Shown in pieces: positions 27,316 to 51,816 of a stretch of DNA of 64,000 nucleotides. Made by a program: the position numbers and the translations under genes. Where the stretch lies: contig OZ242262.1 in NCBI GenBank assembly GCA_965207145.1, positions 8,827-72,826 of the forward strand, read 5' to 3'. The notes under the pieces are model-generated. The model saw nothing but the letters and a program-made list of their open reading frames with translations. It was not told the origin of the DNA and ran no database searches. Each line of letters starts with the position of its first letter. Positions within the stretch are counted from its first letter, which is position 1. The DNA comes from Dehalococcoidia bacterium. GTDB taxonomy: Bacteria; Chloroflexota; Dehalococcoidia; Lucifugimonadales; UBA2962.

Positions 27316-27350
27316 GATCCCACTCCGGTGGCTCGATCCTGAACCGTCCT

Positions 27351-28865: not shown

Positions 28866-28950
28866 AAGTGGCTTGGATTCGATGAGAGGTACCTCTTGTC
28901 GGGCTGAAGGCCTTGCTTACGTCACACGCGCTTGTGTCTGCGTAGACCCC

Positions 28951-30024
28951 TTACAAACCAGCTGGTGAGCCTCTTCGCGGAGATGAGACCCGTTCCGGCA
29001 GCGCCCCGCCCAGGGCCCTGGTGTAGTCGACGCCGAATCCACAGCATGTGCCGATGATCTGGGCTCCCATTCCGACCCAGTCGACGGCCTCCCGCCTCAA
29101 CCCCTCGGCGGTTTCTTCGTTGGCGACCATGCTGTCCTGCCAGGCCTCGAGATAGTCTTCCCTGCCCGCATCCGGATAGACGACTATGGGCCCGGCCCAC
29201 CGGTCGAGGACAACGTCAAGCGCCGCCGTGGTCTCCGATAACCTGCTGTGGAACACGCCGAGCACGTCTGGGTTCAGCGCCGTAATCTCATCGATCCCTT
29301 CGGCCAGGGTCATGTCATAGTCGACAGTCCGCCAACTCGAAGTGAACATCGGCATCCCCATACCGGTGCTGTAGTAACGGTCATCTCCCAGGCTCAACCT
29401 CACCGTCTGTCCGTCACCTGCCACCGATGCCGTAAAGCCCACCCAGACCGGCAGTCCCGTGGCCATAGCCGCTTCAGTGGCAATCAACCTCGACTCGTTG
29501 TCAGCCCACATGTTCTCCATCAGAAAGAAGTCAACACCGGACTCTGCAAGGACATCCGCCTGCTCGTCGACATAGGTCCTCAGCTCGTCTGCCGACAGGC
29601 TGGCGCCATAGCCGAAGCCGGTGCCTCCCAGGAGTGTTCCGGTCCTGCGGTCGCGAACGGGGATGCGGCACGAGATGGACCCGGCAATGTACACAGGCCT
29701 GTCTACGGCGGCCCGATCTATGGCCTCAAGCGCCGCGTCCACCGCGCGCACATTGATCTCCCTGACTAACTCCTGGTACCCGGACGCCTCCAGAGCGGGA
29801 CGGAGGGTGTTGAAGGTATTGGTGGTGATGATATCGGCCCCGGCCCGTATGTAACGCTCGTGCATCTGACGCACCGTGGCCGGATGCGTGTAGTTGCCCG
29901 GACCGCACCACGCGGCCGGATGCATCGGCACGCCCATAGCCTGTAGCTCAGTCCCGATTGCGCCGTCCAGAACGATAACTTCACCCTGATCTATTCGACC
30001 TCTCAGCTCGTCGTATTTGGCCAT
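28951..30024 (-). CDS. Homocysteine S-methyltransferase family protein.
   Basis: VIVLDGAIGTELQ...ADIITTNTF...IIGTCCGFG, with the zinc-binding Cys pattern of the S-methyl_trans family. Confidence 0.85.
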   Translation of the reverse strand: MAKYDELRGRIDQGEVIVLDGAIGTELQAMGVPMHPAAWCGPGNYTHPATVRQMHERYIRAGADIITTNTFNTLRPALEASGYQELVREINVRAVDAALEAIDRAAVDRPVYIAGSISCRIPVRDRRTGTLLGGTGFGYGASLSADELRTYVDEQADVLAESGVDFFLMENMWADNESRLIATEAAMATGLPVWVGFTASVAGDGQTVRLSLGDDRYYSTGMGMPMFTSSWRTVDYDMTLAEGIDEITALNPDVLGVFHSRLSETTAALDVVLDRWAGPIVVYPDAGREDYLEAWQDSMVANEETAEGLRREAVDWVGMGAQIIGTCCGFGVDYTRALGGALPERVSSPRRGSPAGL

Positions 30025-40015: not shown

Positions 40016-41059
40016 CTGCAAGTGGGTTGCGGTCATAGTGCTGTCGGTGTCAGTCGGTGCAGCGTTTGCCCTCACCATCATCTTTGTCGGGTAGGGAGAG
40101 GAATTGGCCTACAGCGTTTACAGGGACGGGACACCATGCAGGGGATGGTCCACGACATCAATTGCCTCTTCACAAGCTTTCACCTCATGGAAAGCCCCAA
40201 GCCGGTGTCTTATTTCCAGGCCTCGACATGGGCACGCCGAATAGGGCAGCTATCTCTCTGCGTGGCTTCTTGCCCTGATGCTGATCAGCGCCGTCTTCAC
40301 AGTCGTCGGCAGCTGCGCCACGTTTATTCTCACCACCCAATGACATGAAGGCTATCCCCGTACTTGGACTGCTCATAGTCCGCCGCGGTTATCTATCGGA
40401 CCGCTACAACCGTGTCATGAATTTCCCTGGAACCGTGGCACCTCCGTAGATTTCTTCCACAGGTTGGAAGATCACAGGGAAATGGCGTTCCAGATCCTCT
40501 CGGCTGCTGCTCCGCCCCAGTTCGTCCGTCACCGCAAAATAACCGGTGCTTAACACGGCGAAAAGGCTCGCTGAAAGCCATTGCAACTACCGTATACGGT
40601 AAGATACTGAACTGGTGCTACAGTGCCCTTACGCTCGTTAACTGCTGGAAGACGCGCTTTATCGGTGTGGACTGGGCCGTTGCAATGTGGATCCGAGCGG
40701 ACTGACCTTTCGACGATCCTGAAGTAATACGGTCGTTCAGCTACTGCGAAAGCAACATGTCATTTGGGAGCGTCGAGAAGCGAAAGTCTGGGGCTTACCG
40801 GCCGCCCGGGCAAGAGTCTACAGACGAATGTACTGCGAATTAGGGTAGACACCTGTTCGCTACGTTGGGCAACAGCATTGGCCACACATGACGATGACAT
40901 TGACGCCATGTCGGTCCTAAAGGAGCACCCTGTTAGGCACCTAGCTTCTCCATTTGGCCGATCTTGGAAGCTTTCTGTGCCGGTAAGAGATGCTGCCATC
41001 GAGGGGCGGAAGCCTAGACTGGCACATCGCATCAAGATAGTGCATCGAGGTCAGACCTG

Positions 41060-43087
41060 ATGACTGCGTCAAAGGGTGAAACGACGATCCAATCGCTCAG
41101 CTTGACTGAAGAACTCCTCCTGATGCTCCTCAACGAGGAGAGTGGTTATTTCCACCAGGTGCCCGGATGGGACCTTAACTGCGCCGTCGTCGGTGCCGTG
41201 CTAGCGGAACTTTCACTCAGGTCTCGAATTGACACAGATCTTGAATCACTTTTTGTCGTTGACGAGACAGAAACGGGTAGACCCACACTGGACTCTATCC
41301 TGAAGGAAATCGCAGCCGAACCGGTCCAAAGGACCACGCAGTACTGGATCGAGAGGCTGGCGCCCCGCGCGGAGTCAATCATCGATTGGACTCTTGATCA
41401 CCTGGTTGACCTGAAGATTCTGGAACACCACGACGGGGAGTTCTGGACGCTGTCCCGTACTACATGGCAAGAGGGGATGTTTGGCAACTCGTCGGAGGGG
41501 ACCGCAGTCCAGTTTGTAAAGACCCGTATCAGCAACGCGATCTTCAATAACGAGATCCCTGACCCGAGGGATGTCATCATCATCTGCCTGATCAACACGT
41601 GCGACGTCTTCCGTTTCATGTTCCAGCTTGATGACGAGGCGGAGGAGCGTATTCAGTTCATCTGCAAGATGGACCTGATCGGCCGCTCCATAGCTGAAGC
41701 GGTGGCCCACAATCTGGCGGGCCCGCTGTTCCGACGTTCGGCCCTGACCAAGAAGATCCCTACCGCTTCCTTGCGCAAGATCCTGTTCAATCCTCACATC
41801 CGCAAGGGCAACATACCGGCAGTGTTCGCGGACCTTGCGCACGAGTATGGCCCGGTGTTTCAGATCCGACCTCCGTTTTCCGAGCCCATGATCGTCTTGG
41901 CGGGCTCCGACACAAATCAGTGGGTCCATCGCCGAGGTCGAATGTACCTGAGAGCGAGGGACTATTTCTCGGACTTTGAGAAAGTCTATGGCGCCGCCGG
42001 GGTGCTGCCCGCCCTTGACGGCGCCGACCATTTCCGACTGCGCAAGTCCTTATCGGCGGCCTATTCCCGCAAGAGACTGGCGGGACAGATAGACGACCTT
42101 TACGGACATGCGCGAAGGCATATGGCGCAGTGGACAGTTGGGGAGGTCTACCCAGCGACCGGCATGAGCCGGCAAATGATCAACGCTCAGATCTCGCCTT
42201 TCATGGTGGGAGTTGAGACTCAGGACATCATTGACGACCTGCTCAAGTTCAAGGAACGGGCGCTCAGCGTCCACATTATGAAGATCATGCCGAAGTTCAT
42301 GCTGAAAACTCCCGGCATGAGGCGCCGGGCGAAGTTCATCGAAGCGTTGCTCGAGCGCGTCTACAGCGTGCATACCCCCGCCCAGCGAGCCGGACGGCCC
42401 CTAGACCTGGTGGACGACTATCTGAGCCTGCATGCGAGCGATCCGCAGTTCATACCCGAATCTAACCTCAGGTTCGCCTTTACCGCGGCGCTGGTGGCCA
42501 GCGCATACCTCGGCGATGCGTTTAGCTTCACCCTGTATGCCATGGCCTCGCAGCCGGAGGTCCACGCGAGAATCCAGGCCGAGGCCGACGCCCTGTTTGG
42601 CAACGGCGATCCGAAGCCCGAGGACTTCAGCCCGTCCACGATTGATGTCACGCACCGCTTCATGATGGAGTGCATGCGCATGTACCCGGTCGTTCCGATG
42701 TCCATTCGAAACGTGATGAATTCCTGTGTGGTAGAGGACTACGAACTGCCGGTGGGTTCGAGGGTCATCATCGCCCAGACGTCCACGCATTACATGGAGG
42801 ATGTCTTTCCAGATCCCTTCAAGTTCGATATCGACCGCTATCTGCCCCCGCGCAATGAGCACCTCAGCCCCGGGTACGCACCCTACGGGCTGGGTACCCA
42901 CACATGCCTCGGCTCCCGGTGGATGGAGTTGCAACTGGCCGTCAACCTGCTGATGGTTGCGCACTACTTCACGCTTGAGGTGCTGCCGAAGAACTTCGAG
43001 TTCCGGTTTAACCCCATACCGTCGATGAAGCCGAGCAGCAGGCTGAAGTTCCGCATAACCGGGAAAAGGCGCGAACTGAGCGCTTAA
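41060..43087 (+). CDS. Fusion protein: N-terminal GPP34/GOLPH3-family domain plus C-terminal cytochrome P450.
   Basis: The N-terminal region reads LSLTEELLLMLLNEESGYFHQVPGWDLNCAVVGAVLAELSLRSRI, the GPP34 pattern. The C-terminal region has ExxR (ECMRMYP) and the haem loop APYGLGTHTCLGSRWMELQ. It is a single uninterrupted 675-aa ORF. Confidence 0.85.
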   Translation: MTASKGETTIQSLSLTEELLLMLLNEESGYFHQVPGWDLNCAVVGAVLAELSLRSRIDTDLESLFVVDETETGRPTLDSILKEIAAEPVQRTTQYWIERLAPRAESIIDWTLDHLVDLKILEHHDGEFWTLSRTTWQEGMFGNSSEGTAVQFVKTRISNAIFNNEIPDPRDVIIICLINTCDVFRFMFQLDDEAEERIQFICKMDLIGRSIAEAVAHNLAGPLFRRSALTKKIPTASLRKILFNPHIRKGNIPAVFADLAHEYGPVFQIRPPFSEPMIVLAGSDTNQWVHRRGRMYLRARDYFSDFEKVYGAAGVLPALDGADHFRLRKSLSAAYSRKRLAGQIDDLYGHARRHMAQWTVGEVYPATGMSRQMINAQISPFMVGVETQDIIDDLLKFKERALSVHIMKIMPKFMLKTPGMRRRAKFIEALLERVYSVHTPAQRAGRPLDLVDDYLSLHASDPQFIPESNLRFAFTAALVASAYLGDAFSFTLYAMASQPEVHARIQAEADALFGNGDPKPEDFSPSTIDVTHRFMMECMRMYPVVPMSIRNVMNSCVVEDYELPVGSRVIIAQTSTHYMEDVFPDPFKFDIDRYLPPRNEHLSPGYAPYGLGTHTCLGSRWMELQLAVNLLMVAHYFTLEVLPKNFEFRFNPIPSMKPSSRLKFRITGKRRELSA

Positions 43088-43116
43088 CGCACCACTGGAT
43101 CGCGCCCGACAGGCTG

Positions 43117-44172
43117 CTAAGGAGAGGGGCTAGGTCTAAGAGGCTTGCGCGCCAGGAAACAGTAAAGTGGCGTGAAGATCCCGGCCCTGCCGCCCGCGAC
43201 ATAGGCGTTTGCAGTCCTATCCAGCAGCCTGACGACGTCCGCAGAGCCCTTGGGAAACACGCCCAGCACCTCGGCCAGCCTGCATACCCCGACAAAAGCC
43301 TTGCGGCCCAGCGGAATCCTGTAGAGGGCGCCGCGCAGTGCTCCGTCCGGGGCTTCCATGGGTCGATACCACGGGGTGATCGAACCGTTCTCCCCGACGC
43401 CGCGGTCAATCCCCTCGATGACCTCGAATCCCGCCGCTACGAGCGACCGGTTCACCTCATCCGTCGTGGCGATTTCCTTGAGCGCTATGCCGTGCATCAG
43501 GTCCTGCTTTTTGGCCAGGTGCCCAGCATCGCTGGGGTCGAACCTGTCCGTCATGCACATCTCCTGACCCCAGAAGAGAGCTCCGGGCTTCAGCACGCGG
43601 CATATCTCGGCGAACGCTCCCACCTTGTCCGGGGCATGGCAGGTCGATTCGATCGCGTAACCGCGGTCGAACGTGTCGTCCGCGATTGCGCCCATGTCCA
43701 TGAAGCTGCACTCGAGGTAGTCGACCATGTAGTCGACCCCCGCCTCGGCGTTCAACGATTTCGCCCTGTCAAGCTGGATCTTATTGTTGTTGACCCCTAC
43801 GACCCTGGCGCCGACCTCACGGACTACACGGCGCATGGGGCCGCCTATCCCACAACCGACATCGATCACCGTCATGCCCTCGCTCATCTCCAGCTTGTCG
43901 ATCATCAGTCGCTGATGCCTGAGCTTGGACTCCTCCAGGCTCTCCCCGGGCGATAGCGGCGCGAAGTGGAGGGATTCGCCCCAGCCGAACACCATGAATT
44001 CGCCGCAAAGGTCATAGTACTCCTTGACGGTTGCTGCGTGGTCGTAGCCCGGCCCGCTAACCCCCTGCGCGGACGCCCTGTCGAGCCATCCATCAAATCG
44101 CTGCACGCGACGGGCTACGGGGGATCCCAGGTACGCGGCCTCCAGCCCTTTGCGTAGATTGCCGAGTTGCAT
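43117..44172 (-). CDS. Sterol C-24 methyltransferase (ERG6/SMT1-family) homologue.
   Basis: YYDLCGEFMVFGWGESLHFA (SMT region I), VIDVGCGIGGP (SAM motif I), YAIESTCHAP (SMT region II), VLKPGALF, EMCMTDRFDP, and the C-terminal TPWYRPME...GRKAF...LGVFPKGS...AGGRAGIFTPLYCFLARKP (Sterol_MT_C-like). Confidence 0.8.
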   Translation of the reverse strand: MQLGNLRKGLEAAYLGSPVARRVQRFDGWLDRASAQGVSGPGYDHAATVKEYYDLCGEFMVFGWGESLHFAPLSPGESLEESKLRHQRLMIDKLEMSEGMTVIDVGCGIGGPMRRVVREVGARVVGVNNNKIQLDRAKSLNAEAGVDYMVDYLECSFMDMGAIADDTFDRGYAIESTCHAPDKVGAFAEICRVLKPGALFWGQEMCMTDRFDPSDAGHLAKKQDLMHGIALKEIATTDEVNRSLVAAGFEVIEGIDRGVGENGSITPWYRPMEAPDGALRGALYRIPLGRKAFVGVCRLAEVLGVFPKGSADVVRLLDRTANAYVAGGRAGIFTPLYCFLARKPLRPSPSP

Positions 44173-44364
44173 GAGTTCCTTTCAGAACAGCTGGGCCGAG
44201 CGGACTATTCGCCTGCGACAGGGGTACCTTCGCGGGAGATTACTACCCTAGCTGCTGTCATGGTGCCGCTGCCCCAACACAGTAGCGGAGAAACGGTCAC
44301 GTTTGTACAGGGAGATTCTATCTAATTGCAGGTAGGCCCCGTCGATGGACTCACCTGCGCCCAT

Positions 44365-44595
44365 CTTTCGTTTCAATCGCTGTGACGCTGCCATATACGC
44401 TTGAGCCTGCAATCCAGGCAGATCTGTCGAAGCCCACGAGCCCACGATTCCGGAGAAAGAACGAGGGGCTCTGCTTCCATCACACGTTCATCATCTGCTC
44501 TCCACCAGTTCATAACCGGATCCTTGGCGCTAGGAGCTAGAGTGATGCTACGCACTGAAGGGTTCTACGCTCACTCACCAGCGGCCCATCACTGC
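44365..44595 (+). repeat. Copy B of the dispersed intergenic element (copy A at 25885-26105).
   Basis: See copy A. It lies between the two methyltransferase genes. Confidence 0.5.
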
Positions 44596-44709
44596 GGGCC
44601 GTTCGACCGGGCCTGAGTCCAGTCGGGGATTACCGGGATCTGTCGCACTCGTCACGCCGGCCAAGGCCGGTATCCAGGGGCCAGGCAGATCCGCGCAGGA
44701 TGAACCAAT

Positions 44710-45549
44710 CTAGTCGCCCTTCACCCCCACTGCATGCGCCCTCGCCGTTGACAGGTAGGCGTCAGGGTGCTTTGCCCACTCGCGGATGCCGCTGACCATC
44801 GACTCTAGCTCAGAGTCAGTGGTCAGGCCCAGTTCAATCGACTCCTGGAACAGCGGGACGTTCTCAATCCACGCGATGTAGATCTCGGCCGACGCGCTCG
44901 CGGCGTCCTGCCCCAACACGTGGGACATATTGGTCTCGAACTCGATGACGTCGAAACCGGCCTCACGCATGTGGGACCTCAGGAAGCGCCCTCGGTTAAG
45001 CGATCCGCCGATTCGCGTAAAGCCGCCCTCGAACAGCTCGAAGAACCTGCTCAGCTCAGGACACTCCGGCACGATGAACGGGAACGACCAGTCGGTACGA
45101 GCGACCGCTCCGACGCCGCCGGGTTTCGTGACCCTGAGTATCTCCCTCAGCGCACGGACGGGATCGGACAGGTGCTCGGTGACCGCGCTGGAAAACACGA
45201 CATCGAACTCGCCGTCTTCGTATGGCAGGTCGTAGATGTCCGCTACCTGGAACGCGAGGTTCTCCAGTCCGCTGTCGGCGGCTAGCCGGTTGGCCCGCTC
45301 GATCATCGTCGGCTCGATGTCGATGCCCACGACCCGGCCGGGCGCCACGATCTCCGCGAAACTGAGCGCGATCGGCCCCGGCCCGCAGCCGCAGTCGAGT
45401 ACGCTCTTACCCTCAGACAGGTGCGGCACTAGGAAGTCGGCGAGCCGGACTGTGTCACGGTTAGCGTAGCCCCGCTGAACTCTGGCCGAGTCGTATCCGT
45501 AGAATGGTCTTCCTCCGAACTGCGGAGTCTGTGGTACGTGTGCCGTCAT
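44710..45549 (-). CDS. Class I SAM-dependent methyltransferase (Methyltransf_11/25-like).
   Basis: VLDCGCGPGPIALSFAEIV...VVGIDIE...FDVVFSSAVTEHL...VTKPGG. Confidence 0.85.
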   Translation of the reverse strand: MTAHVPQTPQFGGRPFYGYDSARVQRGYANRDTVRLADFLVPHLSEGKSVLDCGCGPGPIALSFAEIVAPGRVVGIDIEPTMIERANRLAADSGLENLAFQVADIYDLPYEDGEFDVVFSSAVTEHLSDPVRALREILRVTKPGGVGAVARTDWSFPFIVPECPELSRFFELFEGGFTRIGGSLNRGRFLRSHMREAGFDVIEFETNMSHVLGQDAASASAEIYIAWIENVPLFQESIELGLTTDSELESMVSGIREWAKHPDAYLSTARAHAVGVKGD

Positions 45550-45736
45550 AATCGTGGTCCTATTGCTGCCTCACGGCTTCTCGTATATTTGAGCGCGGTG
45601 CCTGTTGGACTCGGTCTCGGTGCGCCCGCCTGACTGATGCTACCCTGATACAGGCTGATTTGGAGGATGGGTTCTTCGATAGGTCGAGTTACGGCGTGCT
45701 CAAGGACAACATGGGCGGCGTCTGACTCTTTGGTGG

Positions 45737-46306
45737 GTGGAGGTACGATCGGTGGTGAACGCTAATCGCGGCTGTCGCTTAAGCATCGCCGGGAAAGTAC
45801 TGTTCCCGCTGCTAGCCGGGACCATCGTCGCTATCCTGTCCTGCACCGGCGAGCCGGGCAGTTCTTCGACACAGATGACCGTGGTTCCATCCATCACCCC
45901 GGTCCCTACAGTCCCCAAGGATGTTCAGGGGTGCGCCGTAGGCCCAAACGCGGAGTGCCCGGGCGCCAGATTCGATGGACAGGACTTCAGCGAGATTCCT
46001 TCAGTCCAGGGTGGTGGCTCCAGGGGCCGGGAAGCGGCCGATTTCTCCGGGTCTACCCTCGAGGGAGCCAGCTTCGTGGGCTCCAATCTCGAAGGGGTGT
46101 TTTTTGAGGGGGCGAACCTGCGCGACGTGGACTTTCAGGATGCCAACCTCAGAGGAGCCTCCTTCTATCAGGCCGACCTGTCAGGGTCCGACTTCACCGG
46201 TGCAGACCTCGAGAACGCTGACATGGAGGATGCGATATTGCAGGGAGTCATTTACTGTCGCACCAAGACTCCTGATGGCTCCGTTAGTGACAGGGATTGT
46301 CCCTGA
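45737..46306 (+). CDS. Pentapeptide-repeat lipoprotein.
   Basis: The lipobox reads VAILSC. It is followed by ADFSGSTLEGASFVGSNLEGVFFEGANLRDVDFQDANLRGASFYQADLSGSDFTGADLENADMEDAIL. Confidence 0.8.
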   Translation: MEVRSVVNANRGCRLSIAGKVLFPLLAGTIVAILSCTGEPGSSSTQMTVVPSITPVPTVPKDVQGCAVGPNAECPGARFDGQDFSEIPSVQGGGSRGREAADFSGSTLEGASFVGSNLEGVFFEGANLRDVDFQDANLRGASFYQADLSGSDFTGADLENADMEDAILQGVIYCRTKTPDGSVSDRDCP

Positions 46307-46579
46307 GTTCCATAGAGCGTGAGGGCGGAGACGGGTGAATCGCCATGAGCAATCTCTGGCGGAGGCCAGAGGTGCACGGTCGAGTCTGGCTCGAGCGATG
46401 CCGACGGATTAACGAGAAAGGCCACCGCTAGTGAACGAGTTTCCTCGTCGCTGCACGGGGAATCCACGCGGTTGTGCGTTCTGCGGGAGCAGACTCCTGC
46501 ATGAGAGAATGCAGACCATATGCTTGGCTTAGAGTACGAGTGCTCCAGAGGTTGGAGATGAGGATCACGGTTTTTTTCC

Positions 46580-46939
46580 TTGATTGCGGTGGGGCTAACC
46601 GTGCTGGCGATAGCGGCGTGCGGAACGGAGGAATCTCGCCCTCAGAGGCTATACGACTTTTACCAACACGAGAGAGAATCTAATCCCACCCGATTGGCCG
46701 CGCGAATTGCGGCCGAAGAAATGCGCAAGTTTTCGGGCCACATAACGAACATTGACGGCCCGAAGGTTCAATTCCACCCTGACGATCGGATATCGCAACG
46801 GGATCGGTATATCGAGTGCCGGTTCGCTGATCTGGAATCCGTTTCGCAACTGGACACGGGCCAGTACATCACTTTGTTCGGAAGACTCGTCCGCGCCGAC
46901 CACATAATCGTCTTCGACGATTGCACCGTCGCCCAGTGA
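46580..46939 (+). CDS. Hypothetical lipoprotein. The start is uncertain; see the T7-tract finding.
   Basis: The TTG start gives LIAVGLTVLAIAACGTEES (lipobox IAAC). An ATG at 46558 with an AGAGG RBS would supply a proper MRITVF n-region if the T7 run at 46571-46577 were T6. Confidence 0.55.
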   Translation: MIAVGLTVLAIAACGTEESRPQRLYDFYQHERESNPTRLAARIAAEEMRKFSGHITNIDGPKVQFHPDDRISQRDRYIECRFADLESVSQLDTGQYITLFGRLVRADHIIVFDDCTVAQ

Positions 46940-47225
46940 CAGACCTTCCCTTCCTTCAGTTGATATAGCCGCGATCCGGCGTCAGTGGCCCCAGGTCGAT
47001 CATTGGCGGTGGGTCCGATTGACCACGTCGCGGCCTGACGATTCCCTGAGGCCAGACACATCGCCGGATTCGCCGGCCAAAGGGCACGGCCTGGGCATCA
47101 ACGACCCGCCACCCGGCCACAGACGGTGGCGCCAATGCCTGACCGTCGGTTGGTATGGAAACTATCAACGCCACCTGTTACCCTCGCTGCTCAGCAACGA
47201 GCATGGTGAAGGACACATAAAGGTC

Positions 47226-47876
47226 GTGTTGCGCACCCTGACTGGCAGACCGGCACTGCTTGCTCTGGCCACGTGTTTTTCTGTGGCCGCTCTGCTCGTC
47301 GGCTGTGGAGGGGAGACTTCCGGGACAGAGAGCCCTACCTCCCGGCCGGTTTCCACACCTACAGTCACGACCATCTCGGAGGAAGCCCAACAGCCTGAGC
47401 CAACGGCCGTTCCAACGACACCGCCTACCCAAATGGCGCTGGAGGTCGGGCATAAGGCGGGACAGAAAGCCCCGGACTTCATGCTGACCACCGTCGAAGG
47501 TGAGCAGGTCAGCCTGAACAGCTTTAGTGGTCGCCCACTACTCCTCTACTTCTACACCACCTGGTGACCAACCTGCCGTGCCTCGTTGAGGCACCTTAAG
47601 GAAGTTCAACCCGAATACGCGGATCGCGTGGGAATTCTTGCGGTGAACATAGACCCGCTGGAGACCGCCGAACAGATCCTGGCCTACAAGCAATCCGAAG
47701 GGTTCGTGTGGCCAATGACCGTGGCTGATGTGCAGGTTGTAAGGAACTACAACGTCACCCGCCAGGCCGCCTACGTCACTCTCGATTCAGACGGCGTCGT
47801 TTCGACCAGCGTCACCTACGGTAGTGAGACCGCTGAGGATTGGCGAGAGCTTTTCGAAGCCCTGCTGGATTCCTGA
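47226..47876 (+). CDS. TlpA/ResA-like thiol-disulfide oxidoreductase lipoprotein with an in-frame UGA at the first redox Cys position (candidate selenoprotein, UxxC).
   Basis: ORFs 47019..47567 and 47586..47876 are in the same frame, separated only by the TGA at 47565-47567. The joined sequence is APDFMLTTVEGEQVSLNSFSGRPLLLYFYTTW-U-PTCRASLRHLKEVQPEYADRVGILAVNID..., so the UGA sits exactly where the WCxxC Cys is expected. The GTG at 47226 gives the lipoprotein signal ...AALLVGC. Confidence 0.75.
47578..47594 (+). other. SECIS-like hairpin 10 nt downstream of the UGA.
   Basis: GTGCCTC-GTT-GAGGCAC is a perfect 7-bp stem with an apical loop starting GU. The loop begins 18 nt after the UGA. Confidence 0.6.
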
Positions 47877-48161
47877 TCACAGTTGCCGCCCCCGTAGTCT
47901 GGCCACGCCTGCGGCCCCTTTACGGTGTCAGATTGGGTGGGTAGGCCGCCCCGATCCCTTTTGCAGCGATTAATCGCCTACACCAGGCGAACACCTAGCC
48001 TCCGATCGGGAGTTCGTTTTTCCTGTTGTTGTCGGGCCTATTGCAGGAACAGCCGCTCGAAACGCCGCATGAGCCTGACTTTGGCGGTCGGCACTGCCAC
48101 TTTGCCACCGATAGCCGCTGCAGGGCAGGCAGTGCCGGTCCCGCACGGCCCAGGACCGTAT

Positions 48162-49217
48162 TTAGGCGGCCGGGGTGTCAGAATCGCTGGGGTCGGGATA
48201 AAACTGGGCGCAGTAGGCTCTAAATGGCATGAGCTCACCGTCGGAACGGCATAGGCGCGGGCGAGACTGATATTGCTTGCGACTCCAGATGAGCACGTCC
48301 TGTAGCACATCCTTTTCTTGCTGGGCGGCCATGAACTTGTTCATGATGGGCGCGCGCATCCCCACCGGGAGAAATCCGAGGCCCAGTATCCACCGCCTGG
48401 GGTTACGAATCTCCCGCACCTGACCTACCAAAGACATGTCGATCAGCGTGCCGTCGACGGGCGTCGCCAGTATCCACAGGCGCAGGTCCATGCCGATGGA
48501 GTGCTCGCGGATCTCCACGTACGAGTAGCCCAGTCCATAGATTCGCGTCCTCGCCGATATATTGAACGTTAGGCTCGCAATGCCTGCGATCGAGCGCGTT
48601 CTGGTGAAGTCGAAATCGCTTTCGAGAAGGTGTCCGTCCACGGACACGGGGTCGACGCGGTTTACGCCGTCGTAACCGTGCACGTACCGCAGGTGCGCCA
48701 GGTCAACCGAATTCTCCGTAGTCTCCTGAGGATGCCCGGGAAAACGGATGGTCTTGATATCAAGATCGCTCCAACCAGTTTGATCAGGCGACTCCGCGGG
48801 CAGGCTCCACTGGGGCGGCCTTCCCCGGATTCCCCACCACGCGAAGATCAACCCGGCTATTTCCCGTGTTTCGAAGACCCGCAGCCTTGCGAATTTCGGC
48901 GGAGGGGAAAAGGGAGTGGCAACGCATTGGCCCGTGGCATCGAACTCATAGCCATGAAAGGGACACACGAGCCGACCATCGCACACCCTCCCCCCTGCCG
49001 CAGGCCCCAGATCGGCACCAAGGTGAGGGCAAAAGGCCCCGGATACGCAGACTCGCCCGTCTTCATCGCACCAGACTATGATGCTCTCGCCCATCCAGGT
49101 CTTTTGGATGAGCTTCTCCCTCGAGATGGCCCGACGACTTGTAACGAAATACCAGCCCTCAGGGAAAGGGGAAGCTAGCGGGGCGTCAGCGGGCGCCTTA
49201 TAACGGGTTGCTATCGT
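48162..49217 (-). CDS. Rieske [2Fe-2S] non-haem-iron oxygenase (KshA / cholesterol-desaturase-type architecture). The N-terminus extends upstream of the first ATG.
   Basis: CPHLGADL...CPFHGYEF (Rieske) and ENSVDLAHLRYVHG (mononuclear iron). The reading frame stays open 41 codons upstream of the ATG at 49094 and encodes ...PFPEGWYFVTSRRAISREKLIQKTW, the first strands of the Rieske domain. Confidence 0.8.
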   Translation of the reverse strand, partial: TIATRYKAPADAPLASPFPEGWYFVTSRRAISREKLIQKTWMGESIIVWCDEDGRVCVSGAFCPHLGADLGPAAGGRVCDGRLVCPFHGYEFDATGQCVATPFSPPPKFARLRVFETREIAGLIFAWWGIRGRPPQWSLPAESPDQTGWSDLDIKTIRFPGHPQETTENSVDLAHLRYVHGYDGVNRVDPVSVDGHLLESDFDFTRTRSIAGIASLTFNISARTRIYGLGYSYVEIREHSIGMDLRLWILATPVDGTLIDMSLVGQVREIRNPRRWILGLGFLPVGMRAPIMNKFMAAQQEKDVLQDVLIWSRKQYQSRPRLCRSDGELMPFRAYCAQFYPDPSDSDTPAA

Positions 49218-49329
49218 TCAACACTCCTCGTGCGACTAACAGAGTAGCGCATAGCCGGTCATACGCGGCCGCCGCGGGCAAGGCGCAACTGGCGTTCGCT
49301 CAAGTGACGAAGGCCCCAAACCCGTCGAT

Positions 49330-51816
49330 CTAAGGAGTGCTCGGCTGATCCTGACCGTGACGCCGGTGCACATCCTCAATGGCCTCGTCAAGGTCGCTCC
49401 ACATGCGTTCGACCATGGAGCGCAGCCGCATGTTCTGGTACGCGCCCCAGACGACCATCGCGGGCAGCACCACCAGGATGGAGACTATGAGGGAGTAGGC
49501 GATGGTGATGGTCGCCGTGATACCGAACTGCTGTGACGCAAGCAGGGGCGAGGCTATCAGCACCCCGAATCCGAACGCCGTCGTCAGCGCCGAGCCCATC
49601 AGCGCCGAGCCCGTGGTAGCCAGGGTCCGCACAGCCGCTTGCTCCGGGTTGCGCAGACGGGCGAACTCCTCCCGGTAGCGATGAATCACGTGGATGGTGT
49701 AGTCCACCCCGATTCCGATCGACAGCGCCGTGATGATGGAGGTGACCAGGGTGTAGGGAATGTCCAGCAGCGCCATCGTACCCAGCACGCTGATGAGGAC
49801 GAGCACTATCGGCCCCACCGCAACGAGCCCGAGCATGGGCTGGCGCAGCGTCACCCAGAAGAAGATGGTGAGGATGCCCAGTGCAACCGCTACGGTGACA
49901 CTAATCGACTCCGTCTGCCGTCCGGTGATCTGGTCCGTGACCGCGATGGCGACGATGCTGCCCGAGGTCGCCGTGATGGCGCTGTCGTCGCCGGACCAGA
50001 GCGCCTCTATCTCCTCCTGTATCATCCCCGTTCCCTTGGGATCGCCCTGGTAGGTGGGGAACTGCAGCAGCAGCGTATCGACCCCGTCCGGATCGTTAAC
50101 GAGGAAGCGCGCCAGGTGGGGTTCCAGGTCGACAAGCCTGTCGATGACCTCCTGCATCAGTTCTCGATCGAGGCCCACCCCAACGGAGGCTTCCCGGTAG
50201 AGAGCCGCAAGCTCGGGGTCGTAGTTGTCTCCGGGCTCTCCTGTGTCTTCTACCCAGTCGCTCAGTGCCGAGTAGTACGAAGCCTGGATCGGTCCTGCCG
50301 CCTGGGGAGGACGGCGCGACTCGTCCTCAAATGCGGCCGTGAGATCCTGAAGATTCAGGAGCGTGCGTGTCTCGGTAGCCTCGGCCTTGACCACTACGCT
50401 GGTGAGCTCCGTAGAGCCTCCCACGGCTGCTTCGAGCGTTTCCATGTCCTCCAGCACGCTCCCACCCCGGGGCAGGATGTCGCGGATGCTGAATTCGGAC
50501 TTCAGTCCCGTTGCGGCGAACCCGAGCCCGACGGTCACCGCTATGACGCAGACCAGATAGGGCGCGGGCCAGCGTGTTACCGATCGCCCCAGCCGCTCCG
50601 CCAGCAGCGGGATGCCGGGCAATGCGTTAGAGATCGGTCGCGCGGGCGGCAAGGTGCCTCGTGCCTCGCGCCGCCGGTCTATGATGGTTCGTCCGGCCGG
50701 GATCAGGGTCAGCATCACTATCAGGCTCAATCCCACGCCCAAGCCCGCGACGATGCCGAAGTCGCCAATCACCCCTATCGGGGAGAACAGGCTCGCCAGC
50801 AGGCTCACAATTGTCGTGACGGCGGCCAGGGTTAGCGGGATCGTGACATTGCGCAGCCCCGTGCGGACGGCCGTCAGGACAGGCGCGCCTGCGGTTCGCT
50901 GCTCGCGGTAGTGGGACACGGCCTGAATGGCATAGTCCACCGTGAGGCTGATGAGGATCACGGGCACCATGGCGGTGAGCGAGCTGGGAGGGCCAATCGC
51001 TCCCAGCGCCTCCGGCCCGAGCCAGCCTTCCGCCCCGACAACCCAGATTATCGAGAGGATGAGGCCGAGCAGCGTTAACAGCGTATCCGAAATGGCGCGC
51101 GTAAAGAGCAGAAGCAGCGCTGCGATCAGGAGCAGCGCCAGGCCTATGAGCGGTGCCATACCCGACTCGGTGGCCTCCTTGTACTCGTCCTCGATGATCA
51201 CCGGGGATAGGCTGCTCACGTCAAGGGGGCCGTCATCCGCTGTAGCGAGGTCGCTGATCGCTCGTTCGGCGTCCTCGATTCGCTCGTCACCGGTGTCGAT
51301 CAGGCTTATGGTGGCGATCCCAACCGGCTTGCCGTCCTCGTCCTCTCCGGTCAGCGCGGAGAATGCCTCCTGCAACTGCGGCGTCCCGACCACGGAGTCG
51401 ATCTCTGCCTGCGTGACCGAATCGAAGCCGTCGACCCGGAGCACAGACTTGACCAGCGAAGTCGGGGCGGCGACGGGATCACCTGCAACCAGTAGCTCAC
51501 GAACGCCCTGGTCACTCTCGATCTCACCTAGCAGCGCGTCCATCTGAGAGAGCCCGTCGGGAGTGAGCACATCTCCGCGGAACACGAGCGTGGCAACGCT
51601 CACATCGCCCGAGTCGGCGAACGACGCCTCTATCTCCTGCGTCGCCGCAGCAACGGCGTGCCCGGGCGGAAGGAACGCCAGGTCGGCTCCTTCCGTGGGA
51701 GGGGCGCGCATCGTCACGCCCGCGCCAAGCAAGACTGTTACGGCGAGAAGGACTAGGAGCGTGACGTACGGGCGGACCGTGATCAGCCAGCTCAGCCTAT
51801 CGAGTACCTGGCCCAT
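49330..51816 (-). CDS. MMPL/RND-superfamily transporter (HpnN-like architecture).
   Basis: 828 aa with two blocks of about 6 TM helices, each preceded by a large soluble loop. The sequence texture is typical of MMPL proteins (…LSIIWVVGAEGWLG…, …GIGVDYTIHVIHRYREE…). Confidence 0.85.
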   Translation of the reverse strand: MGQVLDRLSWLITVRPYVTLLVLLAVTVLLGAGVTMRAPPTEGADLAFLPPGHAVAAATQEIEASFADSGDVSVATLVFRGDVLTPDGLSQMDALLGEIESDQGVRELLVAGDPVAAPTSLVKSVLRVDGFDSVTQAEIDSVVGTPQLQEAFSALTGEDEDGKPVGIATISLIDTGDERIEDAERAISDLATADDGPLDVSSLSPVIIEDEYKEATESGMAPLIGLALLLIAALLLLFTRAISDTLLTLLGLILSIIWVVGAEGWLGPEALGAIGPPSSLTAMVPVILISLTVDYAIQAVSHYREQRTAGAPVLTAVRTGLRNVTIPLTLAAVTTIVSLLASLFSPIGVIGDFGIVAGLGVGLSLIVMLTLIPAGRTIIDRRREARGTLPPARPISNALPGIPLLAERLGRSVTRWPAPYLVCVIAVTVGLGFAATGLKSEFSIRDILPRGGSVLEDMETLEAAVGGSTELTSVVVKAEATETRTLLNLQDLTAAFEDESRRPPQAAGPIQASYYSALSDWVEDTGEPGDNYDPELAALYREASVGVGLDRELMQEVIDRLVDLEPHLARFLVNDPDGVDTLLLQFPTYQGDPKGTGMIQEEIEALWSGDDSAITATSGSIVAIAVTDQITGRQTESISVTVAVALGILTIFFWVTLRQPMLGLVAVGPIVLVLISVLGTMALLDIPYTLVTSIITALSIGIGVDYTIHVIHRYREEFARLRNPEQAAVRTLATTGSALMGSALTTAFGFGVLIASPLLASQQFGITATITIAYSLIVSILVVLPAMVVWGAYQNMRLRSMVERMWSDLDEAIEDVHRRHGQDQPSTP

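What the first reader, a model, noticed from the sequence alone, without database searches (positions are those of the whole stretch)
41060..51816. Candidate sterol/triterpenoid tailoring-and-export neighbourhood
Within 11 kb the window contains:
- the GPP34-P450 fusion;
- the SMT homologue;
- a second SAM methyltransferase;
- a Rieske non-haem oxygenase of the type that acts on steroid nuclei (KshA and cholesterol-desaturase-like motifs);
- an MMPL/RND transporter of the HpnN type, which moves hopanoids in other bacteria;
- a lipoprotein operon, including a redox selenoprotein candidate, interleaved with these genes.

No squalene epoxidase or cyclase is in the window, so this would be a modification and trafficking module rather than a full pathway. 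As a combination I do not recognise it as a described gene cluster.
Basis: inference. Interest (0 to 1): 0.8.

Follow-up and report, generated by a model that had tools for sequence, protein, structure and literature searches.

The report
Sponge-symbiont sterol-tailoring gene cassette
Four genes here (an unusual sterol-methyltransferase paralogue, a GPP34-cytochrome P450 fusion, a KshA-like Rieske oxygenase and an MMPL lipid transporter) form a cassette shared by sponge-symbiont bacteria of at least six phyla and sometimes embedded in true sterol-synthesis operons, so it most likely modifies and moves sterols, though no enzyme has been tested.

Summary
Only four form a conserved unit:
- MMPL transporter (49330-51816, -)
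- KshA-like Rieske oxygenase (48162-49214, -, ATA start)
- divergent sterol methyltransferase, SMT (43117-44172, -)
- GPP34-P450 fusion (41060-43087, +)

Of 73 species-level genomes carrying this SMT clade with full flanks, 38 have all three partners within 10 kb. A fifth partner, an amine-oxidase-like flavoprotein, survives here only as a relic at 40592-40790. The second methyltransferase and the lipoprotein/selenoprotein operon occur only in the closest relatives. "HpnN-type" is not supported.

The cassette occurs at 60-85% identity in Dehalococcoidia, Acidimicrobiia, Alphaproteobacteria, Binatia, Dadabacteria, Thermodesulfobacteriota, Nitrospira and Opitutae. Every source that could be traced is a sponge metagenome.

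In a Binatia chromosome and two rTCA-carrying, Nitrospira-like contig types it adjoins canonical sterol-operon genes; together these show squalene epoxidase-oxidosqualene cyclase, CYP51, ERG24, SdmA/B and a canonical SMT.

The SMT clade keeps the family core but has invariant substitutions at side-chain-pocket residues. By inference, one member was inactive on desmosterol and 24-methylenecholesterol in published assays.

Best reading: a horizontally spread late-stage sterol tailoring and trafficking module. Whether this genome makes its own sterol could not be tested. The parts were published separately; the combination was not found described.

The parts
40592..40790 (+). Decayed 3' relic of the amine-oxidase-like flavoprotein gene that accompanies the cassette in other genomes. 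It aligns to the last ~60 residues and contains an in-frame stop.
   Evidence: tblastn with more than 25 homologues all hit this spot (E down to 6e-8), and the alignment shows an internal stop. The intact gene is present in 29 of 80 GTDB loci and 41 of 165 loci overall.
41060..43087 (+). GPP34 (residues 15-216) fused to cytochrome P450 (residues 247-645). It is a core member, convergent with the SMT gene with 29 nt between the stop codons.
   Evidence: Pfam. Heme Cys616 and E537-x-x-R540 are invariant in 54 homologues. The I-helix acid-alcohol pair is replaced by Y483-L484. dN/dS is 0.08-0.12. It is adjacent and convergent to the SMT in 44 of 79 species-level loci.
43117..44172 (-). Sterol-methyltransferase-family protein of a distinct sponge-symbiont clade. 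It is the core member used as the anchor for all comparisons.
   Evidence: Methyltransf_11 and Sterol_MT_C domains. About 35% identical to yeast ERG6. It keeps 23 of the 25 residues that are conserved in functional SMTs. Clade-wide substitutions (ERG6 numbering): Y81M, E82V, F89L, T219L, Y223Q, I249.
44710..45549 (-). Generic class-I SAM methyltransferase. It is not a conserved part of the cassette.
   Evidence: Pfam and NCBIfam give only generic hits. Orthologues occur only in L001 and L006.
45737..46306 (+). Pentapeptide-repeat protein with a weak N-terminal lipobox. Not core.
   Evidence: Pfam Pentapeptide. Present only in L001, L006 and L014.
46580..46939 (+). Small predicted lipoprotein (lipobox IAAC) with no family match. 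Not core.
   Evidence: Present only in L001, L006 and L014.
47226..47876 (+). TlpA/ResA-like redoxin lipoprotein, a selenoprotein candidate (U-x-x-C at TGA 47565-47567). Not core.
   Evidence: AhpC-TSA and Redoxin domains. The TGA and the downstream reading frame are conserved in L001, L006 and L014. A 7-bp hairpin begins 10 nt after the TGA codon (13 nt from its first base). Probable GTG start at 47226.
48162..49214 (-). KshA-like Rieske non-haem iron oxygenase. It is a core member and appears to start at an ATA codon.
   Evidence: Rieske and KshA_C domains. KshA is the best solved relative over the full length (83 bits). ATA replaces the homologues' ATG in four genomes, and dN/dS is 0.05-0.12 across the extension.
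49330..51816 (-). MMPL-family RND transporter with a sterol-sensing-domain-like membrane region. Core member.
   Evidence: Pfam MMPL 151 bits and Sterol-sensing 43 bits. It lies directly upstream of the SMT on the same strand in 40 of 76 species-level loci. It is rearranged in this lineage.

Best explanation
This is a horizontally mobile cassette restricted to bacteria of sponge microbiomes. It carries out late-stage tailoring of sterols and moves them out of the cytoplasmic membrane.

Proposed roles (steps 1-5 are inferred, not shown):
1. The N-terminal GPP34 domain docks the P450 on the inner face of the membrane, where sterols sit. It would take the place of the membrane anchor of eukaryotic sterol P450s. 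The P450 then oxidises or desaturates the sterol.
2. The KshA/Neverland-type Rieske oxygenase hydroxylates or desaturates the ring system or the side chain.
3. The amine-oxidase-like flavoprotein, lost in this window, adds, removes or shifts a C=C bond.
4. The divergent SMT adds a methyl group to a side-chain double bond other than the one used by canonical C-24 SMTs.
5. The MMPL transporter delivers the product to the cell surface or to the host. In other genomes a LprG-like lipoprotein plus an MFS pump, or an AcrB-type pump, may do the same.

The sterol comes from the bacterium's own epoxidase-cyclase operon where one is present. Otherwise it may come from the sponge.

Shown here: gene identities, conserved synteny, purifying selection, cross-phylum spread, and physical linkage to sterol operons. 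Inferred: substrate, reactions, direction of transport and the role of GPP34.
For: - Domain assignments.
- Synteny: 38 of 73 species-level loci have all three partners. The P450 is adjacent in 44 of 79 and the MMPL in 40 of 76.
- Further recurrent partners: flavoprotein in 29 loci, LppX_LprAFG lipoprotein in 19, MFS in 17, ERG4/24-like reductase in 6 of 80.
- Embedding in sterol operons:
  - L037 (Binatia): KshA-like Rieske, GPP34-P450, flavoprotein, SdmB-like, SdmA-like (408 bits), canonical SMT, clade SMT, a second GPP34-P450, and a squalene epoxidase-cyclase fusion.
  - L109: SdmA-like, ERG24, CYP51-like P450, epoxidase-cyclase fusion, canonical SMT, clade SMT, GPP34-P450.
  - L168: the cassette lies next to canonical SMT, SdmB-like, SdmA-like, ERG24 and a P450.
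- Dadabacteria loci add FA_hydroxylase, 3-beta-HSD and an ERG4/24-like reductase.
- The SMT keeps 23 of the 25 residues of functional SMTs.
- KshA is the nearest solved Rieske enzyme and CYP51 the nearest solved P450.
- dN/dS is 0.05-0.24.
- Literature: sterol-gene clusters are enriched in sponge MAGs of the same classes (PMC9531527). Symbiont SMTs are functional (PMC10070321).
Against: - No enzyme of this cassette has a demonstrated activity.
- No cyclase, CYP51, ERG24 or SdmA/B is in this window. None could be tied to a Dehalococcoidia chromosome that carries the cassette.
- No redox partner for the P450 or the Rieske protein is encoded in the cassette.
- 18 of 73 loci have the SMT alone.
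- The P450 lacks the usual I-helix acid-alcohol pair, so ordinary monooxygenase chemistry is not assured.
- The transporter matches no sterol- or hopanoid-transporter model.
Confidence: 0.6

Rival explanations
1. The cassette modifies a non-sterol isoprenoid or triterpenoid lipid, such as squalene, a hopanoid, a tetrahymanol-like compound or another polyprenoid, and exports it. SMT-like enzymes that methylate squalene and botryococcene are known from the alga Botryococcus (from my own knowledge).
For: - The side-chain pocket residues are remodelled throughout the clade.
- A tested member was, by inference, inactive on standard sterols.
- The partner flavoprotein belongs to the amine-oxidase/CrtI-type superfamily.
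- No cyclase is in this window.
- MMPL relatives export diverse lipids.
Against: - In Binatia and in Nitrospira-like genomes the same orthologues sit beside or inside the oxidosqualene-cyclase sterol operon and next to a canonical SMT.
- Dadabacteria loci add ERG4/24-, ERG3/25- and 3-beta-HSD-type genes.
- No hopanoid (hpn) genes were seen in any flank.
- The nearest Rieske relative acts on steroids.
Confidence: 0.15
2. The GPP34-P450 protein is a symbiosis effector, as proposed by Ferreira et al. 2025. Its GPP34 domain would bind host phosphatidylinositol-4-phosphate to block phagosome maturation. On this reading the neighbouring genes are unrelated or only loosely related.
For: - The fusion is exclusive to sponge symbionts and monophyletic (PMC11706023).
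- The GPP34 domain is a clear family member (107 bits).
- Every traceable relative comes from a sponge metagenome.
Against: - The N-terminus shows no obvious signal peptide (read by eye).
- A P450 needs haem and cytoplasmic electron donors (general knowledge).
- The gene is tightly and convergently linked to a cytoplasmic SAM-dependent SMT and to a Rieske oxygenase in many phyla.
- Rare GPP34+Rieske fusions fit an enzymatic partnership.
- In a weak alignment to human GOLPH3, the PI4P-contact residue R90 aligns to valine.
- The two ideas are not mutually exclusive.
Confidence: 0.1
3. The genes are part of steroid catabolism, that is uptake and degradation of host sterols as a carbon source, by analogy with KshA and the side-chain P450s of actinobacteria.
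For: KshA is the nearest solved relative of the Rieske protein. The P450 has distant similarity to sterol P450s.
Against: - A sterol methyltransferase is anabolic.
- No KstD, Hsa, Mce4 or beta-oxidation genes appear in any of the flanks examined.
- The cassette adjoins biosynthetic operons.
- No NCBIfam KshA-type model is matched.
Confidence: 0.05
4. The neighbourhood is a chance juxtaposition with no shared function.
For: Two of the six listed components are lineage-specific. The gene order in this window is rearranged compared with most relatives.
Against: Adjacency of the four core genes recurs in dozens of species-level genomes from different phyla, at 60-85% identity and under purifying selection.
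Confidence: 0.03

Closest known systems
Bacterial sterol-biosynthesis gene clusters of sponge symbionts (Brown et al. 2023, PMC10070321; Kelly et al. 2022, PMC9531527)
   Same: They share the habitat and the bacterial classes, and both contain an SMT-family gene. In L037, L109 and L168 the cassette is physically joined to such a cluster. The clade SMT of L109/L110 matches their "A. aerophoba JGIcombinedJ30088_10000835 SMT 2 of 2": 35.16% identity to ERG6 and the same gene order.
   Different: Those clusters are defined by cyclase, CYP51, ERG24, SdmA/B and a canonical SMT. The window has none of these. GPP34-P450, the KshA-like Rieske, the flavoprotein and MMPL are not among the genes those papers name as sterol genes.
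GPP34_L, the GPP34 + cytochrome P450 fusion of sponge symbionts (Ferreira et al. 2025, PMC11706023)
   Same: The window protein has the same two-domain architecture and the same restriction to sponge-associated bacteria of many phyla.
   Different: That paper proposes PI4P binding and evasion of phagocytosis. Its main text does not mention sterols, methyltransferases or MMPL, and it analysed flanks only for the short GPP34 form. Here the fusion is one gene of a sterol-linked enzyme and transporter cassette.
Eukaryotic and bacterial C-24 sterol methyltransferases (ERG6/SMT1 family)
   Same: It has the class-I SAM fold, the Sterol_MT_C domain, the Region II DxGxGxxGP motif and the Region III YAIE(A/S)TCHAP motif. 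It keeps 23 of the 25 residues shared by functional SMTs and is ~35% identical to ERG6.
   Different: The clade has invariant changes at Y81M, F89L, T219L and Y223Q, Ile at position 249, and mostly E82V. Positions 81 and 249 flank the docked sterol side chain in the published model. By inference it has no activity on desmosterol or 24-methylenecholesterol.
KshA (3-ketosteroid 9-alpha-hydroxylase) and SdmA (bacterial sterol C-4 demethylase oxygenase)
   Same: It has a Rieske CxH...CxxH cluster motif, the E-x3-D-x2-H-x4-H iron motif and the KshA_C catalytic domain. It aligns with KshA over its full length.
   Different: It matches no KshA-type NCBIfam model. It scores 30 bits on the SdmA model against a cut-off of 600, whereas the true SdmA-like gene in L037 scores 408. 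No KshB-type reductase or catabolic genes are nearby.
HpnN (hopanoid), BstA (sterol) and MmpL3-5 RND lipid transporters
   Same: It belongs to the MMPL/RND superfamily and has a sterol-sensing-domain-like membrane region.
   Different: HpnN models score 101 and 60 bits against cut-offs of 752 and 1100. BstA scores 20 against 1400. HAE3 scores 198 against 352. It is an unassigned MMPL subfamily.
Sterol-modifying enzymes of intracellular bacteria that lack a sterol pathway, such as the Coxiella burnetii delta-24 sterol reductase (from my own knowledge)
   Same: These are host-associated bacteria that encode late sterol-modifying enzymes without the early pathway. That may be the situation in this Dehalococcoidia lineage and in the 1.6-Mb Dadabacteria genomes.
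   Different: The enzymes are different, the organism is not an intracellular pathogen, and it is untested whether the window's genome lacks a cyclase.

Membership tests
Sterol methyltransferase (ERG6/SMT) family | Class-I SAM-binding fold with the Region II motif DxGxGxxGP | tested here: met
   D104, G106, G108, G111 and P112 align to ERG6 D125...P133. They are invariant or nearly so in 123 clade members.
Sterol methyltransferase (ERG6/SMT) family | C-terminal Sterol_MT_C domain (PF08498) | tested here: met
   59.1 bits against a gathering score of 21.7.
Sterol methyltransferase (ERG6/SMT) family | Aromatic Region I, Y81-E-Y/F-GWGxxFHF, as conserved in all SMTs shown to be functional | tested here: not met
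   The clade has M81 (121 of 123), V82 (111 of 123) and L89 (123 of 123). G84, W85, H90 and F91 are kept (criteria).
Sterol methyltransferase (ERG6/SMT) family | Region III motif YAIEATCHAP with E195 | tested here: met
   The window protein reads YAIESTCHAP. E195 is invariant in the clade.
Sterol methyltransferase (ERG6/SMT) family | Methylation of a delta-24 sterol in vitro | not testable with these tools
   Literature inference only. All functional SMTs in the Brown & Welander panel have F89 and T78. The clade does not, so the probable clade member in that panel ("2 of 2") was not among the functional ones.
GPP34_L (GPP34 + P450 fusion of sponge symbionts) | GPP34 domain and P450 domain in one polypeptide | tested here: met
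   GPP34 at residues 15-216 (107 bits) and p450 at residues 247-645 (127 bits).
GPP34_L (GPP34 + P450 fusion of sponge symbionts) | Occurrence restricted to sponge-associated bacteria | tested here: inconclusive
   Relatives with traceable names (SB06xx, APA and named Nitrospira SB bins) are sponge MAGs. The host of the many MAGs named only by a UUID could not be checked.
CYP51 (sterol 14-alpha-demethylase) | CYP51 signature motifs: B'-C region PxFG...YD and I-helix GQHTS | tested here: not met
   When aligned to the CYP51-like P450 of L109, the window has KVYG and A-S-A-Y-L-G at these sites. CYP51 is only a 69-bit best PDB hit.
KshA-type Rieske steroid oxygenases | Rieske [2Fe-2S] motif, mononuclear iron motif and KshA_C domain | tested here: met
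   CPH...CPFH and ENSVDLAHLRYVH are read in the sequence. Rieske scores 62 bits and KshA_C 87 bits. KshA scores 83 bits over residues 15-345.
KshA-type Rieske steroid oxygenases | Partner reductase (KshB) and a steroid-catabolic gene context | tested here: not met
   No such genes are in the window or in the annotated flanks.
SdmA (bacterial C-4 sterol demethylase oxygenase) | Match to the NCBIfam equivalog NF052579 | tested here: not met
   30 bits against a cut-off of 600. The separate VanA_C-type Rieske gene in L037 scores 408 bits.
HpnN hopanoid transporter | Match to TIGR03480 or NF052374, and linkage to hpn genes | tested here: not met
   100.7 bits against 751.85 and 60.2 against 1100. 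No hpn genes were seen in the flanks.
MMPL family of RND transporters | Pfam MMPL domains in both halves of a ~800-residue membrane protein | tested here: met
   PF03176 scores 150.8 bits in two stretches. MmpL4/5 are the best PDB hits.
Bacterial de novo sterol-biosynthesis cluster | Oxidosqualene cyclase together with CYP51, ERG24 and/or SdmA/B at the locus | tested here: not met
   None are in the 64-kb window. The requirement is met in the related loci L037 and L109; L168 shows the operon up to a P450 at the locus edge, and its 2,258,192-bp contig is also the longest on record for an epoxidase-cyclase fusion.
Bacterial selenoproteins of the thioredoxin fold (side feature) | In-frame UGA at the first Cys of CxxC, conserved in relatives, with a downstream stem-loop | tested here: met
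   W-U-P-T-C motif. The TGA is conserved in L001, L006 and L014. The hairpin GTGCCTC-GTT-GAGGCAC begins 10 nt after the TGA codon. No tRNA-Sec is in the window. The sel genes were not searched.

The most novel reading that the evidence does not exclude
The divergent SMT clade, working with the P450, Rieske and flavoprotein partners, may be the missing enzymology for the unconventional side chains that make sponge sterols special. Examples are C-26 methylation (aplysterol and the precursors of 26-methylstigmastane) and side-chain cyclopropanation (petrosterol type).

On this reading the neighbouring canonical SMT supplies codisterol-type delta-25 intermediates and the clade SMT acts on them. 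Symbiotic bacteria, not the sponge, would then be a source of "sponge" biomarkers.

What fits this idea:
- The clade is confined to sponge metagenomes where sources can be traced.
- It is abundant in Aplysina aerophoba and Petrosia ficiformis data.
- Its side-chain pocket is remodelled.
- It sits next to a canonical SMT of the type whose tested symbiont relatives make (epi)codisterol.
- By inference it is inactive on the two standard substrates.

The biosynthetic logic rests on my recollection of the classical sponge-sterol feeding studies.
Probability: 0.12. Interest if true: 0.9.

Novelty: new variant of a known kind. Interest (0 to 1): 0.65.

Why it matters
Sponge-type steranes (24-isopropylcholestane, 26-methylstigmastane) are used as the oldest chemical evidence for animals. 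The debate now turns on whether bacteria can make such side chains.

This locus defines a widespread, horizontally exchanged set of candidate sterol-tailoring genes that is specific to sponge microbiomes. Its methyltransferase is a separate paralogue with an altered side-chain pocket. By inference that paralogue did not act on either standard substrate used in published assays.

The locus also gives a concrete, testable alternative function for the GPP34-P450 fusion, recently highlighted as a hallmark of sponge symbiosis. On this view it is a membrane-docked sterol enzyme rather than, or as well as, a phagosome effector.

Finally, it nominates candidates for late sterol-pathway steps that have no known bacterial enzymes, and for sterol export.

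Tried and rejected
1. Cyclase in the window's own genome. I then tried to match contig lengths between SMT hits and epoxidase-cyclase hits. Only the Binatia chromosome matched. Because the lists are cut at 120 and show only cluster representatives, this says little about Dehalococcoidia.
2. Structure of the fusion. The AlphaFold2 model from 38 homologues was poor in the P450 half (mean pLDDT 58.9). Foldseek returned only generic P450 folds such as CYP184A1, M. capsulatus CYP51 and P450 BM3, at rmsd above 8 A. This did not discriminate between families.
3. PI4P-pocket residues. Only the first ~100 residues align to human GOLPH3 (E = 0.002). R90 aligns to Val, but R171 and R174 could not be placed.
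4. Assay result for the published "SMT 2 of 2". It is held only in figures, not in the text or the stored supplements, so its inactivity is inferred rather than read.
5. Promoter and terminator scan. It gave fewer sites than in shuffled sequence.
6. Plasmid collection. It holds no SMT homologue and only distant P450s.
7. Readings rejected:
   - HpnN-type transporter.
   - CYP51 identity of the P450.
   - SdmA identity of the Rieske protein.
   - N-terminal truncation of the Rieske gene. It starts at ATA and is under purifying selection.
   - The second methyltransferase and the lipoprotein operon as parts of the module.
Full report
**1. What is in the window**

Between 40.6 and 51.8 kb the following genes are present.

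| Coordinates | Strand | Gene |
|---|---|---|
| 41060-43087 | + | 675-aa fusion of a GPP34 domain (107 bits) and a cytochrome P450 (127 bits) |
| 43117-44172 | - | 351-aa protein with Methyltransf_11 and the Sterol_MT_C domain (59 bits, cut-off 21.7) |
| 44710-45549 | - | generic class-I SAM methyltransferase |
| 45737-46306 | + | pentapeptide-repeat protein |
| 46580-46939 | + | small lipoprotein |
| 47226-47876 | + | TlpA/ResA-like redoxin |
| 48162-49214 | - | Rieske + KshA_C oxygenase |
| 49330-51816 | - | 828-aa MMPL-family RND transporter |

- The redoxin reading frame passes through TGA 47565-47567, giving W-U-P-T-C. That TGA and the frame after it are conserved in three relatives. A 7-bp hairpin begins 10 nt after the TGA codon.
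- The Rieske ORF looked N-terminally short (48162-49094). In fact the conserved FPEGWYF strand continues in frame upstream. The codon that is ATG in homologues is ATA here and in three relatives. With that start the Rieske domain is complete. The extension is under purifying selection, with dN/dS 0.05-0.12.
- The window contains no squalene epoxidase, cyclase, CYP51, ERG24 or SdmA/B.

**2. Is the grouping more than chance?**

- The SMT-like protein has more than 2,000 relatives in the protein collection, and the best 120 are 72-96% identical.
- A scan of one genome per GTDB species found at least 550 relatives. I fetched the 80 best with 10-kb flanks.
- tblastn with the window proteins against these flanks gave the following:
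  - GPP34-P450 lies immediately downstream and convergent in 44 of 79 loci.
  - MMPL lies immediately upstream on the same strand in 40 of 76 loci.
  - Among 73 loci with full flanks, 38 have all three partners, 11 have two, 6 have one and 18 have none.
- The partner proteins are 60-85% identical to the window's.
- Orthologues of the second methyltransferase occur only in L001 and L006. The pentapeptide protein, the small lipoprotein and the redoxin occur only in L001, L006 and L014. These four genes are an insert, not part of the unit.
- Unsupervised clustering of all flank ORFs found further recurrent partners:
  - an amine-oxidase-like flavoprotein in 29 of 80 loci,
  - a LppX_LprAFG lipoprotein in 19,
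  - an MFS pump in 17,
  - an ERG4/ERG24-like reductase in 6.
- The window keeps only a decayed 3' fragment of the flavoprotein gene, at 40592-40790, with an internal stop.
- Starting instead from GPP34-P450 homologues gave the same picture in an Opitutae MAG, a 4.9-Mb contig and a 2.26-Mb contig that carries rTCA genes. GPP34-P450, the flavoprotein and the KshA-like Rieske travel together, usually with SMTs. In the first two an AcrB-type RND pump lies nearby instead of the MMPL.

**3. The link to sterols**

Three independent genomic contexts tie the cassette to sterol metabolism.

- **Candidatus Binatia chromosome (L037).** The order is KshA-like Rieske, GPP34-P450, flavoprotein, SdmB-like (301 bits), SdmA-like (408 bits), canonical SMT, clade SMT, a second GPP34-P450, and a 1269-aa squalene epoxidase-oxidosqualene cyclase fusion.
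- **Aplysina aerophoba contigs (L109/L110).** The order is SdmA-like, ERG24, CYP51-like P450, epoxidase-cyclase fusion, canonical SMT, clade SMT, GPP34-P450.
- **The rTCA-carrying contig (L168).** The cassette lies next to canonical SMT, SdmB-like, SdmA-like, ERG24 and a P450. The length of this contig equals the longest contig recorded for an epoxidase-cyclase homologue.
- **Dadabacteria.** The SMT, Rieske and MMPL genes lie beside FA_hydroxylase, 3-beta-HSD and an ERG4/24-like reductase.

Published work had already reported clusters of ERG24, CYP51 and lanosterol synthase, and enrichment of SMT, in sponge MAGs of the same classes, including Dehalococcoidia (PMC9531527).

**4. The methyltransferase is a distinct paralogue**

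- I aligned it to yeast ERG6. I recalled that sequence from memory and checked it at 28 of 28 published residue numbers.
- The window protein is ~35% identical to ERG6.
- It keeps 23 of the 25 residues that Brown & Welander (2025 preprint) found conserved in every functional SMT.
- Across 123 clade members certain positions differ consistently:
  - Y81 is Met in 121,
  - E82 is Val in 111,
  - F89 is Leu in all,
  - T219 is Leu in all,
  - Y223 is Gln in all,
  - position 249 is Ile in all.
- Positions 81 and 249 flank the docked sterol side chain in the published model.
- The canonical SMTs next door in L037 and L109 keep the usual residues and are only ~42% identical to the clade.
- BLASTP of ERG6 against the L109/L110 clade SMT gives 35.159%. 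Brown et al. list 35.16% for gene JGIcombinedJ30088_100008359, their "A. aerophoba SMT 2 of 2", in a cluster with the same gene order. A clade member was therefore almost certainly in their test panel.
- All functional SMTs in that panel have F89 and T78. [quoted passage not shown] This is an inference, because the result itself is only in figures.

**5. The other enzymes**

- **P450.** The nearest solved relatives of the P450 half are CYP51s, at only 69 bits. CYP51 signature motifs are absent. The haem cysteine and ExxR are invariant in 54 homologues. The I-helix acid-alcohol pair is replaced by a conserved Tyr-Leu; this statement depends on the alignment.
- **GPP34-P450 in the literature.** Ferreira et al. 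2025 described the fusion as exclusive to sponge symbionts and proposed PI4P binding to evade phagocytosis. Their main text does not mention sterols, methyltransferases or MMPL. They also note rare GPP34+Rieske fusions.
- **Rieske protein.** It aligns over its full length with KshA (83 bits) and is not SdmA (30 bits against a cut-off of 600).
- **Transporter.** It is an MMPL of no assigned subfamily. The HpnN, BstA and HAE3 models are all far below their cut-offs, and MmpL4/5 are the best PDB hits.
- **Flavoprotein.** Its nearest solved relative is LkcE (107 bits).

**6. Distribution**

- By record title, the SMT clade occurs in Dehalococcoidia/Chloroflexota (the majority), Acidimicrobiia, Alphaproteobacteria, Ca. 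Dadabacteria, Ca. Binatia and Thermodesulfobacteriota, at 71-92% identity to the window. Identity that high between phyla points to horizontal transfer.
- The fusion also occurs in Nitrospira and Opitutae MAGs.
- All 89 relatives in the JGI metagenome collection carry a small set of contig prefixes. Those I could trace through Brown et al.'s tables (LXNI, LXNJ, JGIcombinedJ30088, Ga0209021) are sponge metagenomes.
- MAG names with SB06xx and APA prefixes are sponge bins.
- The window is 92-98% identical at protein level, and colinear, with a Dehalococcoidia chromosome (OZ220697.1, L006) and with a metagenome scaffold (L001).
- All genes are under purifying selection, with dN/dS 0.05-0.24.

**7. 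What could not be settled**

Whether this organism has a cyclase is unknown. Epoxidase-cyclase homologues with a source name belong to Nitrospira, Gammaproteobacteria, Defluviicoccus, Rhodospirillales and Acidimicrobiia. Only the Binatia chromosome is shared between the cyclase and SMT contig lists. These lists are truncated, so this is only weak evidence that cassette-bearing Dehalococcoidia lack this type of cyclase.

**8. Interpretation**

- The best-supported reading is a mobile, sponge-microbiome-specific module for late-stage sterol tailoring and trafficking (confidence about 0.6).
- The steps I infer are:
  - The GPP34 domain acts as a peripheral membrane dock for the P450.
  - The Rieske protein and the flavoprotein act as desaturase, hydroxylase or isomerase-type enzymes.
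  - The SMT paralogue acts on a non-standard side-chain double bond.
  - The MMPL, or other pumps elsewhere, exports the product.
- Rival readings, in decreasing order of plausibility, are a non-sterol triterpenoid substrate, a PI4P-binding effector role for the fusion, steroid catabolism, and coincidence.

**9. Novelty**

The components are published separately: bacterial SMTs and sterol clusters in sponge symbionts, and the GPP34-P450 fusion. In seven literature searches I found no description of their linkage into one cassette with a KshA-like Rieske oxygenase, a flavoprotein and a transporter. I also found no recognition of this SMT as a separate clade with an altered pocket. I therefore rate it a new variant of a known kind, of moderate to high interest. 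It bears on the sponge-biomarker debate and offers a testable alternative function for a reported symbiosis hallmark.

Noticed in passing
window 1-12657 (-): A giant open reading frame of more than 4,200 codons starts at ATG 12657 with a signal- or anchor-like hydrophobic stretch and runs off the window start. It is built of Calx-beta repeats: at least 10 in the last 1,200 residues, and a 339-nt-period array at 1-3838 with GC ~71%. It is probably a huge surface adhesin. The large plus-strand ORFs listed there are antisense artefacts with no family match.
   Followed up: partly
window 47226-47876 (+), TGA at 47565-47567: A TlpA/ResA-like redoxin lipoprotein has selenocysteine predicted in a U-P-T-C active site. 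The TGA is conserved in three related genomes, and the hairpin GTGCCTC-GTT-GAGGCAC begins 10 nt after the TGA codon (13 nt from its first base). No tRNA-Sec is in the window, and the sel genes were not searched. An unrelated AhpC/TSA redoxin sits directly upstream of the MMPL gene in the Dadabacteria loci (L003, L039, L047).
   Followed up: partly
window 49212-49214 (-): The Rieske oxygenase gene appears to start with ATA, where homologues have ATG. The ATA is kept in four genomes that differ by dS up to 0.48, and the N-terminal extension is under purifying selection.
   Followed up: yes
window 40592-40790 (+): A pseudogene relic of the amine-oxidase-like flavoprotein lies in a stretch of lowered GC (0.55) just upstream of the GPP34-P450 gene. 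It covers the last ~60 codons and has an in-frame stop. The cassette in this lineage is therefore an eroded and rearranged version.
   Followed up: yes
window 42497-42514 (+), residues 480-485 of the GPP34-P450 protein: In the whole GPP34-P450 family the P450 I-helix motif (A/G)Gx(D/E)T(T/S) reads A-S-x-Y-L-G. The conserved acid and threonine used for oxygen activation are therefore missing (Tyr in 53 of 54, Leu in 48 of 54). This hints at unusual chemistry, but the call depends on the alignment.
   Followed up: partly
window 14429-15733 (-): A second, stand-alone cytochrome P450 (434 aa, 77 bits) lies 25 kb from the cassette. Its family was not determined.
   Followed up: no
window 26149-30024 (-): Genes for a DAO-type FAD oxidase, a sarcosine-oxidase-alpha-like flavoprotein and a homocysteine S-methyltransferase lie together. 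In the 96%-identical relative L001 the same genes are only 3-9 kb from the GPP34-P450 gene. The window therefore carries about 9 kb of extra genes between them (MarR, ion channel, PLP decarboxylase, Cache sensor).
   Followed up: no
L166 16150-22031 and L167 363-6409: In an Opitutae MAG (L166) and an unclassified 4.9-Mb contig (L167), a complete AcrB-type tripartite RND pump (outer-membrane factor, adaptor and ACR_tran) lies a few kb from the GPP34-P450, flavoprotein and Rieske genes, and no MMPL gene is called in the 10-kb flanks shown. This suggests the transporter component is swapped according to envelope type.
   Followed up: no
L012 2527-6214 and 16 to 18 other GTDB loci: A LppX_LprAFG lipoprotein and an MFS pump, resembling the mycobacterial LprG-Rv1410c lipid-export pair, recur immediately beside the cassette in 19 and 17 of 80 loci. 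They are absent from the window.
   Followed up: partly
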